Position numbers and translations under genes: made by a program
The notes under the pieces: model-generated
The model's input: only the letters and a program-made list of their open reading frames with translations
The model's database searches: none
What the model was told of the DNA's origin: nothing
Assembly (NCBI GenBank): GCA_024510845.1
Contig: JANEMA010000007.1
Span: 514-64,513, forward strand
Direction of reading: 5' to 3'
Length of the DNA stretch: 64,000 bases
From: Gammaproteobacteria bacterium
GTDB taxonomy: Bacteria > Pseudomonadota > Gammaproteobacteria > Chromatiales > Chromatiaceae
Part shown: piece after piece, positions 1-5,060 of the stretch
Position numbering within the stretch: position 1 is the stretch's first letter
Layout: each line of letters begins with the position of its first letter

Positions 1-940
1 GATATACAAACTTACCAGACACATTGCTGGCAAATTGGGTAATTGCGTAAACACGCTGATGAACATCAAAGCGTCCGTTTATGTAGTGGAAAATACTCCC
101 GATGCCACCTTCACCAGGAACGAGGATTGCCTCGCAGGCATAAGAATAGCTATCTATTCGTTCAACTGTTTCTGATCGCACAAAAAACGGATACTGCCCT
201 CCTTCAACCTTGTCTTGGTTATTCTTGGATCCAGTCTGGATATGCGCAATATCCCCCAACCGCTTCGTTTCCCACTCGCCGCTGAAGCCCGGCAAGCGGG
301 TTTTGCCGGTGAGGAGTTGCTGCATGGCGGCGGTTTTGATGGCGCGCTTTTTGGCGATGAGCTTGTCCAGCGCGGTGATGAGGGCATCGACGTCCGACAG
401 CGCGGTGGCGATGGCGCGCTGTTCTTCGAGAGAGGGCGTTGGAACAAGTGTTTTTTTCGCGCTTTGTATCGTATAGGTTTCAACAGTGGTTCCCATTGAG
501 GAATTCTTGATCTGCTTTACTATTATGTCAGTCAAGAAAACCTGCTTTAGAAACTCTGATGAATAGCCACCTCTACTCTTCAACCAGAGAACACTCGCAT
601 CTTTGAAATAAAACATATTATCTGGCGAGACGGTATACACCTTTCCGATGGTTCCGATGCCTGTAACCAATGCATCGCCCACCTTTGGAACACCATATTT
701 AGATTTCAGCGTTAGATATAAATCTTCAGTAATGAAAAGCTCGTTATCAACCACTCCTTTTTCCGCAAGAACCGCAACTTCTCTTGCTCTATAAAATGGG
801 ACCCCTCTGGATTTCCAATCTCTCTGAAGTACTCTTTTGCTCGATATAACATCGTAATATTCATCAATACGGGCTACAACCCAATCCTCCGGAATCACCC
901 CCACCTCAGTCCGCTTGTATCCCGACGGCACTTCGTCCAA
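1..940 (-). CDS. hsdS: Type I R-M specificity subunit S (runs off the left edge; start is TTG 940 or GTG 931)
   Basis: Manual translation is open to base 1: VPSGYKRTEVGVIPEDW, TRD1 (SKRVLQRDWKSRGVPFYRARE), helical spacer EEQRAIATALSDVDALITALDKLIAKKRAIKTAAMQQLLTGKTRLPGFSGEW, then TRD2. Absent from the ORF track because it is truncated by the window edge. Confidence 0.93.
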   Translation of the reverse strand, partial: MDEVPSGYKRTEVGVIPEDWVVARIDEYYDVISSKRVLQRDWKSRGVPFYRAREVAVLAEKGVVDNELFITEDLYLTLKSKYGVPKVGDALVTGIGTIGKVYTVSPDNMFYFKDASVLWLKSRGGYSSEFLKQVFLTDIIVKQIKNSSMGTTVETYTIQSAKKTLVPTPSLEEQRAIATALSDVDALITALDKLIAKKRAIKTAAMQQLLTGKTRLPGFSGEWETKRLGDIAHIQTGSKNNQDKVEGGQYPFFVRSETVERIDSYSYACEAILVPGEGGIGSIFHYINGRFDVHQRVYAITQFASNVSGKFVY

Positions 941-971
941 TGGAGAATGGTCAATGGATAATTGATAATCA
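937..971 (+). repeat. 7-nt tandem array, inverted relative to the other arrays
   Basis: ccaatgg agaatgg tcaatgg ataattg ataatca. Confidence 0.85.
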
Positions 972-985
972 GCAGTGACCTCACG

Positions 986-1013
986 GCATTGTCCATTGTC
1001 AATTACCCATTAC
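986..1013 (-). repeat. 7-nt tandem array overlapping the stop of the four-helix-bundle gene
   Basis: + strand: gcattgt ccattgt caattac ccattac. Confidence 0.85.
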
Positions 1014-1358
1014 CTCCCTGTTTTTCTTCACAATCGCCACCAACAGCTTCAGTATCTCCGTCAAATCCGCGCCAATGGATTCCGCTCCCTTGGCATCGAT
1101 ATAACCAGTTTCTTTCAACAACTGAATCCAGTACTCCGATTCATTCGCTTCCTTGAGCGCAATCGACATCTTGTGCACGAAGTCGGCCCGGCTTTCGGCC
1201 TGATCCGCTTCCCGAATCAAGGCGCCAATCGCCGTGCCACTGCGCAACAACTGCTTGCTCAGGACATATTCCCGTCTTTCCTGCTGCACATGCTGGCACA
1301 AACGCACCACACGCACCGCAAAGGCAAACGACTTGTCCCGAACCACACTTCCCTTCAC
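999..1358 (-). CDS. Four-helix-bundle protein (TIGR02436 / 23S rRNA IVP / Avd-like family)
   Basis: KSFAFAVRVVRL...LSKQLLRSGTAIGALIREADQAESRADFVHKMSIALKEANESEYWIQLL; GGGGAG RBS before the GTG start. Confidence 0.92.
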   Translation of the reverse strand: MKGSVVRDKSFAFAVRVVRLCQHVQQERREYVLSKQLLRSGTAIGALIREADQAESRADFVHKMSIALKEANESEYWIQLLKETGYIDAKGAESIGADLTEILKLLVAIVKKNREVMGN

Positions 1359-1367
1359 AGCTCCCCG

Positions 1368-1409
1368 CCACCATCCATTGTCAATTATCCATTATCAACT
1401 ATCCATTGA
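1368..1409 (-). repeat. 7-nt tandem array (6 units) overlapping the hsdM stop
   Basis: + strand: ccaccat ccattgt caattat ccattat caactat ccattga. Confidence 0.88.
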
Positions 1410-1754
1410 GGTGAGCCCCATCCGGCGCAGGTGTTCGTCCACCTTCGCCTGCAGGCTCTCCACCTCCTGCATGATCTCCGGCAGCGGCTCGGCGTAGCGC
1501 TCCTCCAGCTCCCGGATGCGGGTGGCGAGCTGCTGGGTGACGCGCTCGATCTCACCCTGCACGGCCTGTTCGAGGGCGGCGAGCCATTTGTCGTCCACCA
1601 CCAGTTCCTTGATCTCGGCCTCGGTGAGTTGGGCGTAGTGCTTGAGCACCGCTTCGTCACGGGCCTTGATGGCCTCCTTGAGCTGCTTGTTGGCGGCGGC
1701 CTCGGCGTCGAACAGCGCCAGACAATGTTTCAAAGCCGTCATCTCCTTCGCTGT

Positions 1755-1782
1755 CCATTGCTCATTGTCCATTGTCAATTGC
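1755..1782 (-). repeat. 7-nt tandem array inside the hsdM coding tail (encodes QLTMDNEQWT)
   Basis: + strand: ccattgc tcattgt ccattgt caattgc. Confidence 0.8.
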
Positions 1783-2372
1783 CGCACCTTGGTCTTGGTG
1801 ATCTTGCCCTTGTCGGTCTTGGCCTCTTCGAGCAGGCCGTCCTCGCCTGAATGCTCTTCGATGTAGCTCTCCAGTTCCTGCGCGGCGGCGTCGGCCTCGG
1901 CCTGGAGCCGGTCGATGTGCTTTTGCTCGTCTGCGAAGTAGCGGGTAACGATGAGCGCGGGGGGGATGAGGTCGGTCTTGTATTTCTTGCGGCCGATGGT
2001 GAGGTCCGGGGTCTCCTTGTGCTTCCGACCCTTCTCGGCCACCAGCTCGCGGGGTCTGGCGGCGGCCTGCCAGCCGTCCTGGACGATGGCGTAGACGTCG
2101 TCCTGCAGGGTCTCGGCCCAGTAGTCCATGAGGTGCTGGTAGACGGCGTAGGCGTCGATGAGGGGCGCGCCTTCGAATTGTTCAAGCAGGGCCTCGGAGA
2201 GTTCGTGGATGAGCGTCTTGGGCTCGGTGTCGCCATTCAGGCCCATGAGGCCGGGCCGGTGCGGATCGCGCCAGGCGTTGAAGCGTTCGAGGATGCGCTC
2301 GCGGAAGGCGGCGAACTCGGGGTGTTCGAGGATGGTGGGCTTGATGCGCTCCGGGGGAACCCGGGGGTGGCT

Positions 2373-2402
2373 GTAGGTTGGGTTAGCGGAGCGTAACCCA
2401 AC
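2373..2402 (+). repeat. GTAG-type REP palindrome, in frame within the hsdM tail (VGLRSANPTY)
   Basis: GTAG-GTTGGGTTA-gcggagcg-TAACCCAAC. Confidence 0.85.
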
Positions 2403-2431
2403 GGGGTCGGTGGGTCGGTCGGGTTGTTGTG

Positions 2432-2469
2432 CCCTCACCCCCGGCCCCTCTCCCAAAGGGAGAGGGGAG
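2432..2469 (+). repeat. REP-like palindrome of the CCCTCACCCC..CTCTCCC..GGGAGAGG class, in frame within the hsdM tail (SPLPLGEGPGVR)
   Basis: 10-bp perfect stem CCCCTCTCCC-aaa-GGGAGAGGGG at 2445-2467. Confidence 0.85.
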
Positions 2470-2477
2470 AAAAGCGT

Positions 2478-3920
2478 CTAGCGCAGGGTTGGGAAGACCT
2501 GCCAGTAGTCTTGCAGGGCGTCGATGTCGCGGTTGGGGATGCCGCCGCTCAAGTGGGCGTGGAGGTCGTGCAGGTCCTCGGGCTCGCTGGAATCGATGTA
2601 GCGCGGGATGTTGAGGTTGTAGTCGTTGGCCTCGATCTCGCGCAGGGGCGCGAAGCGGGCGTAGCGTGGCAGTTCCTTGCGGCTGGTGAAGACGTCCACG
2701 ATCTTGTGGATGTCGCGCTCGCGCAGGCGGTTCTTGTTGCCGTCCTTCATGAAGCCCCTGGAGGCGTCGATCATGAAGATGCCGCCCCGCTGGGGATCGG
2801 CGTTGGCGGCGGCGTGTTCCTTGTCGATGACCAGGATGCAGGCGGGGATGCCGGTGCCGTAGAACAGGTTGGCGGGCAGGCCGATGATGCCACGAATGAA
2901 GCCGCGCCGGACAAGGTTGCGGCGGATATTGGCCTCGGCCCCGCCGCGGAACAGCACGCCGTGGGGCAGGATGACCGCGCCCTTGCCGGTGCTCTTGAGC
3001 GACTTGAGGATGTGCAGCAGGAAGGCGTAGTCGCCGTTCTTGACCGGCGGGATGCCGTATTCGAAGCGGCCGTATTCGTCATGCTCGGGATCGAGGCCGT
3101 TGCTCCAGGCCTTGTAGGAGAAGGGCGGATTGGCCACGGCGTAGTCGAAGGTCTTGAGGCTGCCGTCCTTCTCCTTCCAGTGCGGGTTGGCCAGGGTGTT
3201 GCCCTGCCAGATCTCGGCGGTGGGGGCGTCGTGCAGGATCCTGTTCATGCGCGCCAGGGCGGCGGTGGCGTTGTCCATCTCCTGACCGAAGATGGAGAGT
3301 CCTCGCGGGGCCTCGTGGGCCACCTTGAGCAGCAGCGAGCCGGAACCACAGGTGGGGTCGTAGACCGACTGGTCCTGGCGGGTGTCCTTGCCGACGCCGA
3401 TGACCCTGGCCAGAATCCGCGAAACCTCGGCCGGGGTGTAGAACTGCCCCTTGCTCTTGCCCGACTCGGTGGCGAAGTGGCGCATCAGGTATTCGTAGGC
3501 GTCGCCCAGCAGATCATCGCCGTCAGCGCGGTTGGCGCGCAGGTCGATGGTCTCGAAGATGGCGATGAGCTTCGAGAGCCGGTCCACCATCTCCTTGCCC
3601 TTGCCGAGCTTGTCCTCATCGTTGAAGTCGGCGACGTCGATGACGCCCTTCAGGTCGTTCTCCTCGGCCAGGCGGCCGATGATCTTGTTGATTCTGTCGC
3701 CGATCTCCTTGTCGCCCTTGAGGCGCGCCATGTCGTCGAAGGAGCCGCCCTCGGGCACCAGGATCAGCGCCCTGGGGTCGCCGGCGTACTTGTCGGAAAC
3801 GTATTTGACGAACAGCAGGGTCAGCACATAGTCCTTGTACTGGGAGGCGTCCATGCCACCGCGCAGCTCGTCGCAGGACTGCCAGAGGGAGGAGTAGAGT
3901 TCGGATTTCTTCAGGGCCAT
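2478..3920 (-). CDS. hsdM: Type I R-M DNA methyltransferase subunit M, catalytic part (480 aa, ends at an amber codon)
   Basis: MALKKSELYSSLWQSCDELRGGMDASQYKDY; GQFYTP; DPTCGSG (motif I); NPPF (motif IV); YNLNIPRYID. Confidence 0.95.
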   Translation of the reverse strand: MALKKSELYSSLWQSCDELRGGMDASQYKDYVLTLLFVKYVSDKYAGDPRALILVPEGGSFDDMARLKGDKEIGDRINKIIGRLAEENDLKGVIDVADFNDEDKLGKGKEMVDRLSKLIAIFETIDLRANRADGDDLLGDAYEYLMRHFATESGKSKGQFYTPAEVSRILARVIGVGKDTRQDQSVYDPTCGSGSLLLKVAHEAPRGLSIFGQEMDNATAALARMNRILHDAPTAEIWQGNTLANPHWKEKDGSLKTFDYAVANPPFSYKAWSNGLDPEHDEYGRFEYGIPPVKNGDYAFLLHILKSLKSTGKGAVILPHGVLFRGGAEANIRRNLVRRGFIRGIIGLPANLFYGTGIPACILVIDKEHAAANADPQRGGIFMIDASRGFMKDGNKNRLRERDIHKIVDVFTSRKELPRYARFAPLREIEANDYNLNIPRYIDSSEPEDLHDLHAHLSGGIPNRDIDALQDYWQVFPTLR

Positions 3921-4679: not shown

Positions 4680-5060
4680 TTAGATATGTCGCTTTGCGAT
4701 ATATACCATTCCGTACCCTACCTCTGGTTCTCCATACAAAAGGATGTCTTCGATTGTCCCTTTCTCCACCTTGAACCACATGATGTTAGGCCAGGGTGGT
4801 ACATTGTCGTTGACCCAGCCTTGGCTCCAGCTGTCTTCCCGAAGTCCCTTGCGGCTCATCATCAGGCCCCGCGATAAGTTGGGACTACCCGCAATACCAA
4901 TCCATTCGGCATTGTCCAGGTTTTTGATCCTAGACAGGGATATCCACTGCTCGTTGCACAGATAGATGGGGAATGTTTCGATTCCGAGATTCCTCAGGTC
5001 AGGTTCCATCAGAGTCTTTAACGCATCGATCTCAATTTCTGTCTTTCTATTTTCTTTCAT
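4680..5060 (-). CDS. Hypothetical protein, AT-rich orphan (126 aa)
   Basis: ATG-started ORF with natural composition in an AT-rich patch; no recognisable motif. Confidence 0.55.
   Translation of the reverse strand: MKENRKTEIEIDALKTLMEPDLRNLGIETFPIYLCNEQWISLSRIKNLDNAEWIGIAGSPNLSRGLMMSRKGLREDSWSQGWVNDNVPPWPNIMWFKVEKGTIEDILLYGEPEVGYGMVYIAKRHI

What the first reader, a model, noticed from the sequence alone, without database searches (positions are those of the whole stretch)
1755..2469. Three unrelated repeat families are translated in frame inside the HsdM C-terminal domain
Seen: a CCCTCACCCC-class palindrome (SPLPLGEGPGVR), a GTAG-REP (VGLRSANPTY) 30 bp away, and a 4-unit heptamer array (QLTMDNEQWT) all lie in the open hsdM frame without breaking it. 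Known: such elements are normally extragenic; in-frame palindromes are best known from the Rickettsia palindromic elements. Inference: the HsdM tail is a repeat landing site, with tolerant loops that capture or domesticate repeats, perhaps as scars of small cassette genes coming and going.
Basis: partly seen in the sequence, partly recalled or inferred. Interest (0 to 1): 0.62.

Follow-up and report, generated by a model that had tools for sequence, protein, structure and literature searches.

The report
Repeat-colonised loops in a broken hsdM
A restriction-system methylase gene carries three kinds of small repeats translated in its reading frame at two loops that repeats have hit many times in related genes.

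Summary
All three repeats are real and lie in the frame of a long-form type I hsdM on the minus strand. The frame is not open, though. An in-frame TAG (2478-2480) sits four codons 5' of the palindrome; a 99.4%-identical conspecific contig has TAC there.

Inserts of 7 or more residues fall almost only at two sites. Site 1 is a disordered linker after the invariant Leu-Phe (pLDDT below 50). Site 2 is a helix-loop tip. Different repeat families occupy each site in separate clades (at least 6 and at least 8 state changes).

The window's site 1 is a composite: a 41-nt palindrome element plus the right half of a GTAG REPIN. That REP family has 117-223 copies and a flanking RAYT gene in Dyella. Here it has one copy and no RAYT, so it probably came in with the mobile hsd operon.

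The site-2 heptamers match the arms of the four-helix-bundle cassette downstream and occur nowhere else in the genome.

Being in frame is best explained by survivorship, because the REPIN doublet has only one stop-free frame. Intragenic REPs are already documented (PMC3733652). I found no evidence that the inserts have a function.

The parts
2481..3920 (-). hsdM, N-terminal 480 codons (HsdM_N plus N6_Mtase core)
   Evidence: Pfam PF12161 1e-17 and PF02384 2.3e-101; TIGR00497 7e-86
2478..2480 (-). In-frame TAG at codon 481, an ancestral codon that reads GAC, CAC or TAC in relatives
   Evidence: Conspecific L001 has TAC. No suppressor tRNA in the genome.
2431..2471 (-). palA element: TTC, a 10-bp hairpin, and a GGGGGTGAGGGC tail; translated as FSPLPLGEGPGVRA
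   Evidence: The family has up to 43 copies in some genomes of the same class.
2403..2430 (-). Remnant of the REPIN spacer (compare L005)
   Evidence: window AACAACCCGACCGACCCACCGACCCC versus L005 AACAACCCGGCCAACCCACCGACCCC
2373..2402 (-). GTAG REP (REP-B), the right half of a REPIN; translated as VGLRSANPTY. The GTA of its GTAG head encodes Tyr516.
1398..2477 (-). Continuation of the hsdM frame: linker plus about 330-aa helical C-terminal extension. Stop TGA at 1395-1397.
   Evidence: Thousands of 811-819-aa homologues are continuous here. No Pfam, NCBIfam or PDB match for this part.
1751..1781 (-). Site-2 heptamer array (4 units), translated as QLTMDNEQWT
1373..1408 (-). Heptamer array at the hsdM 3' end. 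It replaces the canonical '..EWRxGA' tail and supplies the TGA stop.
999..1358 (-). Four-helix-bundle gene (PF05635 / TIGR02436). Its TGA stop also lies in a heptamer unit.
937..1013 (.). Forward heptamer array (984-1013), short spacer, then inverted array (937-970) that supplies the TTG start of hsdS
2..940 (-). hsdS, 5' part; it continues to C66:257, beyond the window
   Evidence: Pfam PF01420

Best explanation
The region is the linker and C-terminal extension of a long-form HsdM (about 815 aa in canonical form) in a horizontally mobile type I restriction-modification operon.

**Two permissive segments.** Two segments of this protein tolerate extra or replaced residues, and small repeats have colonised them many times.
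- Site 1 lies directly after the invariant Leu483-Phe484.
- Site 2 is the helix-loop tip at 709-723.

**Site 1 in this window.** It holds a composite net insert of 75 nt.
- One part is a palA hairpin element.
- The other part is the spacer and right REP of a GTAG REPIN.
- The REP family is multicopy and RAYT-associated in other genera. It is a single copy without a RAYT gene here, so it is most likely a fossil carried in with the operon.

**Site 2 in this window.** A four-unit heptamer array of the same family as the arms around the neighbouring four-helix-bundle cassette replaces a segment of nearly equal length.

**Why they are in frame.** They are in frame because only stop-free inserts of a multiple of three bases survive in a gene under selection.
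- The REPIN doublet is open in 1 of 6 frames, and that is the frame used.
- The site-2 array is open in 1 of 3 forward frames.
- palA is open in 5 of 6 frames.
- A tandem heptamer gives the same cyclic 7-residue peptide in every frame.

The inserted peptides are passengers: Pro/Gly-rich, disordered, with no evidence of function.

**The stop codon.** In this genome a later point change (TAC to TAG) cut the gene after the methyltransferase core. So hsdM is now a fresh pseudogene or, less likely, a split gene.

**Shown versus inferred.** Shown: the anatomy, the repeat-family membership, the recurrence and the loop location. Inferred: survivorship as the cause, import of the REP by gene transfer, and loss of function.
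For: **Empty versus filled sites at DNA level**
- L002 and L003 are empty.
- L006 has palA only (+36 nt).
- L007 has a full REPIN (+99 nt).
- L005 has a REPIN variant (+102 nt).
- The window and L001 have palA plus half a REPIN (+75 nt).

**Recurrence**
- The canonical site-1 length is 27-28 aa in 73 of the 85 homologues where the site could be extracted by pattern.
- Inserts of 7 aa or more occur almost only at the two sites in 98 homologues.
- Tree changes: site 1 at least 6, heptamers at least 8, the AGIQ repeat 4. The window's four closest relatives, 96% identical outside the sites, show four different state combinations.
- A distant locus, L166 (62% identity), carries a different palA variant at the same junction after TTC.

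**Structure**
- Model mean pLDDT is 82. Residues 489-513 score below 50 and lie between two short strands. Site 2 is helix 709-717 plus loop 718-723.

**Frame counts**.

**REP family**
- 117 and 223 copies in two Dyella genomes, mostly as inverted doublets, with Y1-transposase hits flanked by them.
- One copy here, none in 40 relatives, and no Y1 transposase in the genome.

**palA family**
- Present in 26 of 301 genomes of the class, with up to 43 copies.
- The only other strict copy in this genome is an in-frame doublet inside an intact 1125-aa hsdR.

**Heptamers**: found only in the hsd locus.

**Stop codon**
- L001 shares 99.4% identity over 6.8 kb and the same neighbouring genes, and reads TAC.
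- hsdM differs from L001 at 21 sites (14 nonsynonymous, 7 synonymous). That is about 3.6 times the density of the flanks.

**Precedent**: intragenic GTAG REPs are documented, including one in an N-6 DNA methylase at residues 444-496 (PMC3733652).
Against: - All palA carriers at site 1 share the same junction (after TTC), orientation and frame, even in distant clades. Tolerance alone does not predict this; it hints at sequence-directed insertion.
- The homologue sets drawn from protein databases are biased towards intact ORFs, so frame-breaking inserts would be under-sampled. The 80 DNA-level loci showed none, but they carry few inserts.
- The tree counts changes of state, not gains. Recombination among close alleles could inflate the counts within the window's own clade.
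- Low pLDDT at site 1 partly reflects the lack of alignment depth over the insert.
Confidence: 0.75

Rival explanations
1. Site-directed insertion rather than tolerance. palA-class elements, and perhaps the heptamer arrays, recognise a short target at these positions, for example the TTC(TCC) microhomology after the Leu-Phe codons. On this view the hot spots reflect the insertion mechanism more than protein tolerance.
For: - The junction 'CTN TTC | TCC CCT CTC CC' is identical in the window, L001, L006 and G007. A different palA variant sits at the same point in L166, which is 62% identical.
- All seven protein-level carriers read 'LF|SPLP'.
- The palA copy in hsdR also starts with CTTCTCCCC, so TTC belongs to the element.
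- Heptamer arrays with different units start at the same codon in L002, L008, L009, L188 and L210.
Against: - No target-site duplication is visible.
- Other inserts at site 1 (L007, L005, L155, L192, L194) lie at slightly different positions.
- Selection for one frame would also standardise the junctions.
- The enzyme that moves palA is unknown.
Confidence: 0.3
2. One ancient insertion at each site, later spread by recombination between hsdM alleles or lost many times. On this view the sites are not recurrent targets.
For: - Carriers are concentrated in the window's clade: 8 of 10 at site 1.
- Near-identical backbones carry shuffled state combinations, which looks like allelic recombination.
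- A patch of about 90 nt of high divergence surrounds site 2.
Against: - Carriers P0021, P0050, L166 (site 1) and P0020, P0029, P0035, L188, L210 (site 2) lie in clades only 55-65% identical.
- They carry different element variants or different heptamer units.
- Unrelated families (palA, REP, heptamer, AGIQ) occupy the same two sites.
Confidence: 0.12
3. The heptamer array at site 2 is functional. It might be a cis site on DNA or RNA for the four-helix-bundle protein of the neighbouring cassette. Alternatively it might be a slipped-strand switch that turns hsdM on and off.
For: - The array shares its unit and an exact 18-mer with the cassette arm.
- The unit type at site 2 tracks the unit type at the same operon's 3' arm in the window, L008 and, loosely, L010.
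- Earlier notes from this scan describe heptamer-armed cassettes as a recurring package (these are leads only).
Against: - L009, L188 and L210 have the array but no cassette at the M-S junction.
- The units are imperfect and only 3-4 in number.
- The array is identical in the window and L001. L002 has the same number of units and differs in 3 bases of one unit (GAG for GGA).
- The site-2 stretch does not fold better than shuffled sequence (z = +0.5).
Confidence: 0.1
4. The TAG is not a true loss of function. Either it is an assembly or consensus error, or the gene now works as two pieces. In the second case the C-terminal piece would restart at GTG 2435-2437, using palA's GGGAGAGGGG as a ribosome-binding site.
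For: - The 360 codons after the TAG are still open and nearly identical to L001.
- A gene caller already starts a 347-aa product at that GTG (P0121).
- The purine-rich palA arm ends 5 nt upstream of the GTG.
Against: - No consistent natural split at this point exists among about 60 short C-terminal fragments, whose N-termini are heterogeneous.
- The genome has no suppressor tRNA.
- hsdM has diverged faster than its flanks, with a 14:7 nonsynonymous to synonymous ratio.
Confidence: 0.25

Closest known systems
Intragenic GTAG/CGTC REPs (Di Nocera et al. 2013, PMC3733652)
   Same: - Single REPs and REP dimers are translated in frame inside real genes, encoding 20-30 residues.
- Insertions at about the same site occur in recB of two Xanthomonas species.
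- The authors suggest the inserts sit in flexible linkers.
- Their table lists an N-6 DNA methylase (Oter_3011) with a GTAG dimer at residues 444-496.
   Different: - Here the REP is an orphan half-doublet in a genome with no other copy and no RAYT.
- It is combined with an unrelated palindrome element.
- The same gene family shows two hot spots used by at least four repeat families across clades.
Rickettsia palindromic elements (RPEs; reviewed in PMC10969869)
   Same: Palindromic selfish DNA inserted in frame into protein-coding genes, adding a peptide segment without destroying the protein.
   Different: RPEs are about 100-150 bp and form families specific to Rickettsia. The elements here are 30-42 nt, G+C-rich and unrelated in sequence. 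Membership was not tested by sequence comparison and is not claimed.
REPIN-RAYT systems (Bertels and Rainey 2011, PMC3116915)
   Same: REP-B has a GTAG head and an imperfect palindrome, forms inverted doublets, and reaches 117-223 copies per genome. It flanks Y1-transposase genes in Dyella. Full doublets sit at site 1 in L005 and L007.
   Different: REPINs are normally extragenic and inherited vertically with their RAYT gene. Here half a doublet travels inside a mobile hsdM in a genome that lacks the system.
Heptamer-armed four-helix-bundle (PF05635) cassettes, related to ORF-bearing 23S rRNA intervening sequences
   Same: The site-2 array and the hsdM 3' end use the same heptamer unit as the arms around the PF05635 gene at 999-1358.
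   Different: The site-2 array has no gene and no inverted partner. The nearby CATTGTC is simply the His-Cys-Leu codons. It is an arm-like solo array at most, not a cassette.
Simple-sequence contingency loci in restriction-modification genes (own knowledge: pentanucleotide repeats in Haemophilus hsdM, tetranucleotide repeats in mod genes)
   Same: A short tandem repeat, with a unit length that is not a multiple of three, inside an hsdM reading frame.
   Different: The array has only 3-4 imperfect units and shows no unit-number variation among the close alleles examined.

Membership tests
Type I R-M methyltransferase HsdM (TIGR00497) | HsdM_N plus N6_Mtase domains, scoring above the curated cut-offs | tested here: met
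   PF12161 65 bits, PF02384 340 bits, TIGR00497 289 bits against a cut-off of 243. Best fold matches are HsdM structures 7vs4 and 3lkd.
Type I R-M methyltransferase HsdM (TIGR00497) | Operon with hsdS and hsdR | tested here: inconclusive
   hsdS follows the gene. The contig ends 140 nt into a rhuM-like gene. No hsdR with high identity to that of close locus L002 was found; the only hits are 28-33% identical, in other systems on C63, C24 and C15.
Type I R-M methyltransferase HsdM (TIGR00497) | Uninterrupted reading frame | tested here: not met
   TAG at codon 481; relatives are open at this codon.
GTAG REP / REPIN | 5' GTAG tetranucleotide followed by an imperfect palindrome | tested here: met
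   GTAGGTTGGGTTAGCGGAGCGTAACCCAAC at 2373-2402. It forms an 11-bp stem with one bulge; fold z = -3.6.
GTAG REP / REPIN | Many dispersed copies, commonly as inverted doublets | tested here: met
   Met in other genomes: 117 and 223 copies in two Dyella genomes, mostly doublets, and 155 matches in 120 loci of many taxa. Not met in the window's own genome, which has 1 copy, nor in its 40 relatives, which have 0.
GTAG REP / REPIN | Cognate RAYT (Y1 transposase) flanked by the REPs | tested here: met
   Met in Dyella: Y1_Tnp hits at G042:C21:483528-483827 and G041:C1:3171960-3172283 (the G041 hit at 22 bits is just below the family's 23-bit cut-off) each lie between REP-B doublets. Absent from the window's genome.
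MITE | Terminal inverted repeats plus a target-site duplication | tested here: not met
   No duplication flanks palA or the REPIN when filled and empty sites are compared. palA is a single hairpin with an asymmetric tail.
Rickettsia palindromic elements | Sequence membership in one of the RPE families | not tested
   Size and composition differ (30-42 nt and G+C-rich, against about 100-150 bp). The resemblance is in behaviour only.
Heptamer-armed four-helix-bundle cassette | PF05635 gene enclosed by tandem heptamer arrays with an inverted partner | tested here: met
   Met for the neighbouring unit at 937-1408. Not met for the site-2 array at 1751-1781, which has no gene and no inverted partner.
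Phase-variable simple-sequence repeat | Variation in unit number between close strains | tested here: not met
   The array is identical in the window and L001. L002 has the same number of units and differs in 3 bases of one unit (GAG for GGA). Population reads could not be examined.

The most novel reading that the evidence does not exclude
Mobile long-form hsdM genes may act as 'flight recorders'. Sequence-directed insertion at two fixed codons would collect small repeats from each successive host, namely REPINs, palA-type hairpins and 'AGIQ' palindromes. It would also collect solo arms of the still undescribed heptamer-armed cassette system.

On this reading, the translated inserts could be read as a record of the operon's past hosts. 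The site-2 heptamer arrays would show that the cassette system can integrate into, and leave, coding sequence while leaving a frame-proof translated scar.
Probability: 0.25. Interest if true: 0.55.

Novelty: new member of a known kind. Interest (0 to 1): 0.36.

Why it matters
- It gives a clean, well-sampled example of how selfish repeats enter proteins. Two loops of one widespread enzyme family have been hit by at least four unrelated repeat families, with empty, single, double and composite states all preserved in near-identical alleles.
- It shows that an orphan REP inside a mobile gene can mark horizontal transfer from a genome that hosts REPINs.
- For annotation, it warns that the 'two genes' called here are one hsdM cut by a point mutation.
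- It flags that the roughly 330-residue C-terminal extension of this very common HsdM type has no family model or solved structure.
- It is not a new mechanism. Intragenic REPs and RPEs are established.

Tried and rejected
- **Rfam over 800-2700.** Only a sub-threshold hit (whalefall-1, 16 bits against a cut-off of 37).
- **Pfam, NCBIfam and PDB sequence search of the C-terminal part.** Nothing found.
- **A natural split form of the gene at site 1.** The roughly 60 short C-terminal fragments have heterogeneous starts, so there is no consistent split.
- **A cassette sitting inside hsdM at site 2.** Not found in the 10 close loci (window included) or the 80 distant ones. The long match in L149 turned out to be a second methylase upstream.
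- **An inverted partner for the site-2 array.** The CATTGTC 24 nt downstream is the conserved His-Cys-Leu codons.
- **Stop-codon suppression.** No tRNA with anticodon CUA, UUA or UCA.
- **REP copies from the genome scan lying in hsdM homologues.** None of 120 loci.
- **Literature on PF05635 / TIGR02436 with heptamer repeats.** Nothing relevant found.

Full report
**Layout.** The finding lies on the minus strand in a type I restriction-modification operon.
- An ORF starts at ATG 3920 and carries HsdM_N and N6_Mtase (PF12161 1e-17, PF02384 2.3e-101, TIGR00497 289 bits).
- It ends at an in-frame TAG at 2478-2480 after 480 codons.
- The same frame then stays open for another 360 codons (2477-1398) to TGA at 1395-1397.
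- Downstream come a heptamer array (1373-1408), a four-helix-bundle gene (999-1358; PF05635, TIGR02436), a forward and an inverted heptamer array (937-1013), and hsdS (940 to beyond the window start).
- A search with the read-through protein found thousands of single-chain homologues of 811-819 aa that cover both parts. The two ORFs are therefore one long-form hsdM, interrupted here.

**Check of the observation.**
- The palindrome element, which I call palA, spans 2431-2471. It has a perfect 10-bp stem and a 3-nt loop and encodes FSPLPLGEGPGVRA.
- The GTAG REP spans 2373-2402 and encodes VGLRSANPTY. Its fold z-score is -3.6.
- The four-unit heptamer array spans 1751-1781 and encodes QLTMDNEQWT.
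- None of this is chance. Reversed control patterns gave no hits in 41 to 301 genomes. TRF finds this heptamer type only in the hsd locus of the 1.87-Mb genome. The site-2 array shares an exact 18-mer with the cassette arm.
It is not part of the repeat. The same codon reads GAC, CAC or TAC in relatives.
- Contig L001 is 99.4% identical over 6.8 kb, has the same neighbouring genes, and reads TAC at this codon.
- The genome has no suppressor tRNA.

**Are the peptides lineage-specific, and do the positions recur?** Yes to both.
- Among the 120 listed homologues, the segment between FPxLR and HPEF could be extracted by pattern in 85 and is 27-28 residues in 73 of them. The exceptions carry repeat peptides exactly after the invariant Leu-Phe.
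- Examples are SPLPLGEGPGVR, three tandem SPLPxGE units (P0021), and VGWVERSETQQ...VGLRSANPTY.
- In 98 full-length homologues, inserts of 7 or more residues occur almost only at this site and at a second site after residue 718. The one exception is P0058.
- Site 2 holds heptamer-type peptides in 12 homologues (QLTMDNGQWT, QWKMENGEWT, LTVDRGQLTVG, QLTIDGSELSV). In 4 homologues it holds a different palindromic repeat peptide, VIPAKAGIQ.
- I built a tree with the trait columns removed. On it the site-1 state needs at least 6 changes, the heptamer state at least 8, and VIPAKAGIQ needs 4.
- The window's three nearest relatives are 96% identical to it outside the sites, yet the four genes show four different combinations of states.
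- A DNA-level sample of 80 more distant loci (59-68% identity) is not biased towards intact ORFs. It adds a different palA variant at the same junction (L166), a reverse-orientation heptamer insert near site 1 (L194), and two more site-2 heptamer arrays with other units (L188, L210). No frame-breaking insert was seen.

**Anatomy of site 1.** Comparing filled and empty sites gives the following.
- L002 and L003 are empty.
- L006 has palA alone (+36 nt).
- L007 has a complete inverted REP doublet, with GTAG at both outer ends (+99 nt).
- L005 has a variant doublet (+102 nt).
- The window and L001 have palA followed by the doublet's spacer and right REP (+75 nt). The window's insert is therefore composite: either two events or a recombinant of two alleles.
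- The GTA of the REP's GTAG head encodes Tyr516, which is conserved across the family.

**What the repeats are.**
- The REP is a genuine GTAG REP/REPIN family. It has 117 and 223 copies in two Dyella genomes, mostly as inverted doublets. Y1-transposase hits there lie between doublets. It also occurs across many other taxa. None of 120 such loci is an hsdM homologue.
- In the window's own genome the REP has one copy. It is absent from 40 relatives, and the genome has no Y1 transposase.
- The long-form hsdM itself is patchy. It is present in only 2 of 9 genomes of the same genus and sits in unrelated neighbourhoods in other contigs. The simplest reading is that the REP is a fossil imported with the operon.
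- palA is a dispersed family found in 26 of 301 genomes of the class, with up to 43 copies. This genome has about nine related hairpins.
- The only other strict palA copy here is an in-frame doublet (ALTPGPSPRGRGEKSPLPLGEGLGEG) inside an intact 1125-aa hsdR of a second type I system.
- The heptamers belong to the arms of the four-helix-bundle cassette and occur nowhere else in the genome.

**Structure.**
- An AlphaFold2 model built from 98 sequences has mean pLDDT 82. Its first roughly 500 residues match solved HsdM structures.
- Residues 489-513, the core of the site-1 insert, score below 50 and form a loop between two short strands.
- Site 2 is the end of a short helix (709-717) plus a loop (718-723) between long helices, with pLDDT about 80-84.
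- The C-terminal extension is mostly long helices and has no sequence match in the PDB.

**Why in frame.**
- The REPIN doublet is stop-free in only one of six frames, and that is the frame used.
- The site-2 array is stop-free in one of three forward frames.
- palA is open in five of six frames.
- A tandem heptamer gives the same cyclic seven-residue peptide in every frame. This explains why independent arrays read alike.
- Every net insert length is a multiple of three.
- This is what survivorship in a gene under selection predicts, and it is the explanation offered for intragenic REPs in the literature (PMC3733652). That paper's table already lists an N-6 DNA methylase with a REP dimer at residues 444-496.
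- One feature goes beyond simple tolerance. palA sits at the identical junction, orientation and frame in distant clades. I keep sequence-directed insertion as a rival, or an additional factor.

**State of the gene here.**
- Besides the TAG, hsdM differs from L001 at 21 sites (14 nonsynonymous, 7 synonymous). That is about 3.6 times the density in the flanking 4.3 kb. This fits relaxed constraint, or recombination, in one of the two lineages.
- A restart at GTG 2435-2437 behind palA's purine-rich arm is conceivable, and a gene caller chose it (P0121). However, there is no consistent natural split among the fragments in the database.

**The cassette-scar idea.**
- The heptamer unit at site 2 matches the unit at the same operon's 3' arm in the window, L002 and L008, and loosely in L010.
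- Against this, L009, L188 and L210 have the array without a cassette at the M-S junction. No locus shows a cassette inserted at site 2.
- The idea is neither shown nor excluded. Earlier notes of this scan describe similar heptamer-armed cassettes and one translated arm-type insert in another hsdM. I treated these as leads only.

**Verdict.** The phenomenon is a well-documented kind, namely translated intragenic repeats at permissive loops. This is an unusually rich example of it, sitting in a gene that a point mutation has just broken.

Noticed in passing
G000:C24:80147-80212 (L131 4148-4213), outside the window: A second type I system's hsdR is an intact 1125-aa ORF. It carries an in-frame inverted palA doublet (ALTPGPSPRGRGEKSPLPLGEGLGEG) shortly before the DEAH motif. 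Both strict palA copies in this genome therefore lie inside restriction-modification genes.
   Followed up: partly
G000:C40:9397-9502 (L133 4398-4503), outside the window: Two palA-like hairpins are translated in a 315-aa ORF with no Pfam match (SPDPSPASGRGEG...PLSLEGEGWGEG). The ORF directly follows a SNF2-family helicase gene and precedes AAA ATPase and subtilase genes.
   Followed up: partly
G000:C66:150-260 (L004), just left of the window start: Between the hsdS stop and a rhuM-like gene lies a forward heptamer array, a spacer of about 44 nt, and an inverted array, with no gene inside. It looks like an 'empty' version of the cassette arms.
   Followed up: no
window 937-1013 and 1373-1408: The heptamer arrays supply three signals: the TGA stop of hsdM, the TGA stop of the four-helix-bundle gene, and the TTG start of hsdS. 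In cassette-free relatives (L003, L005-L007), hsdM and hsdS overlap directly and HsdS has about 25 more N-terminal residues.
   Followed up: partly
window about 880 and leftwards (hsdS): The 99.4% identity to conspecific contig L001 breaks inside hsdS, which is 398 aa here and 429 aa in L001. This suggests an exchanged target-recognition domain between otherwise near-identical strains.
   Followed up: no
window 1398-2339: The roughly 330-residue helical C-terminal extension of this HsdM type has no Pfam, NCBIfam or PDB match. Yet nearly all of the 8000 candidates scored in the homologue search matched it (7992 at E <= 0.001).
   Followed up: partly
L165 (about 4985-5015) and L194, site-1 region: L165 has a four-unit TCCGCAN heptamer array inside a site-1 segment of canonical length. 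L194 has a reverse-orientation heptamer insert (…STVNSPLSI…) in frame, five residues before the conserved IKxxIFG.
   Followed up: no
homologues P0008, P0021, P0063, P0095 (also P0057): A fourth repeat family, read as (V/A)(I/F)PA(K/E)AGIQ, occupies site 2 in four separate places on the tree.
   Followed up: partly
whole genome G000: The assembly is 1.87 Mb in 72 contigs and rated 99.99% complete. Nine genomes of the same genus are 2.5-3.5 Mb.
   Followed up: no
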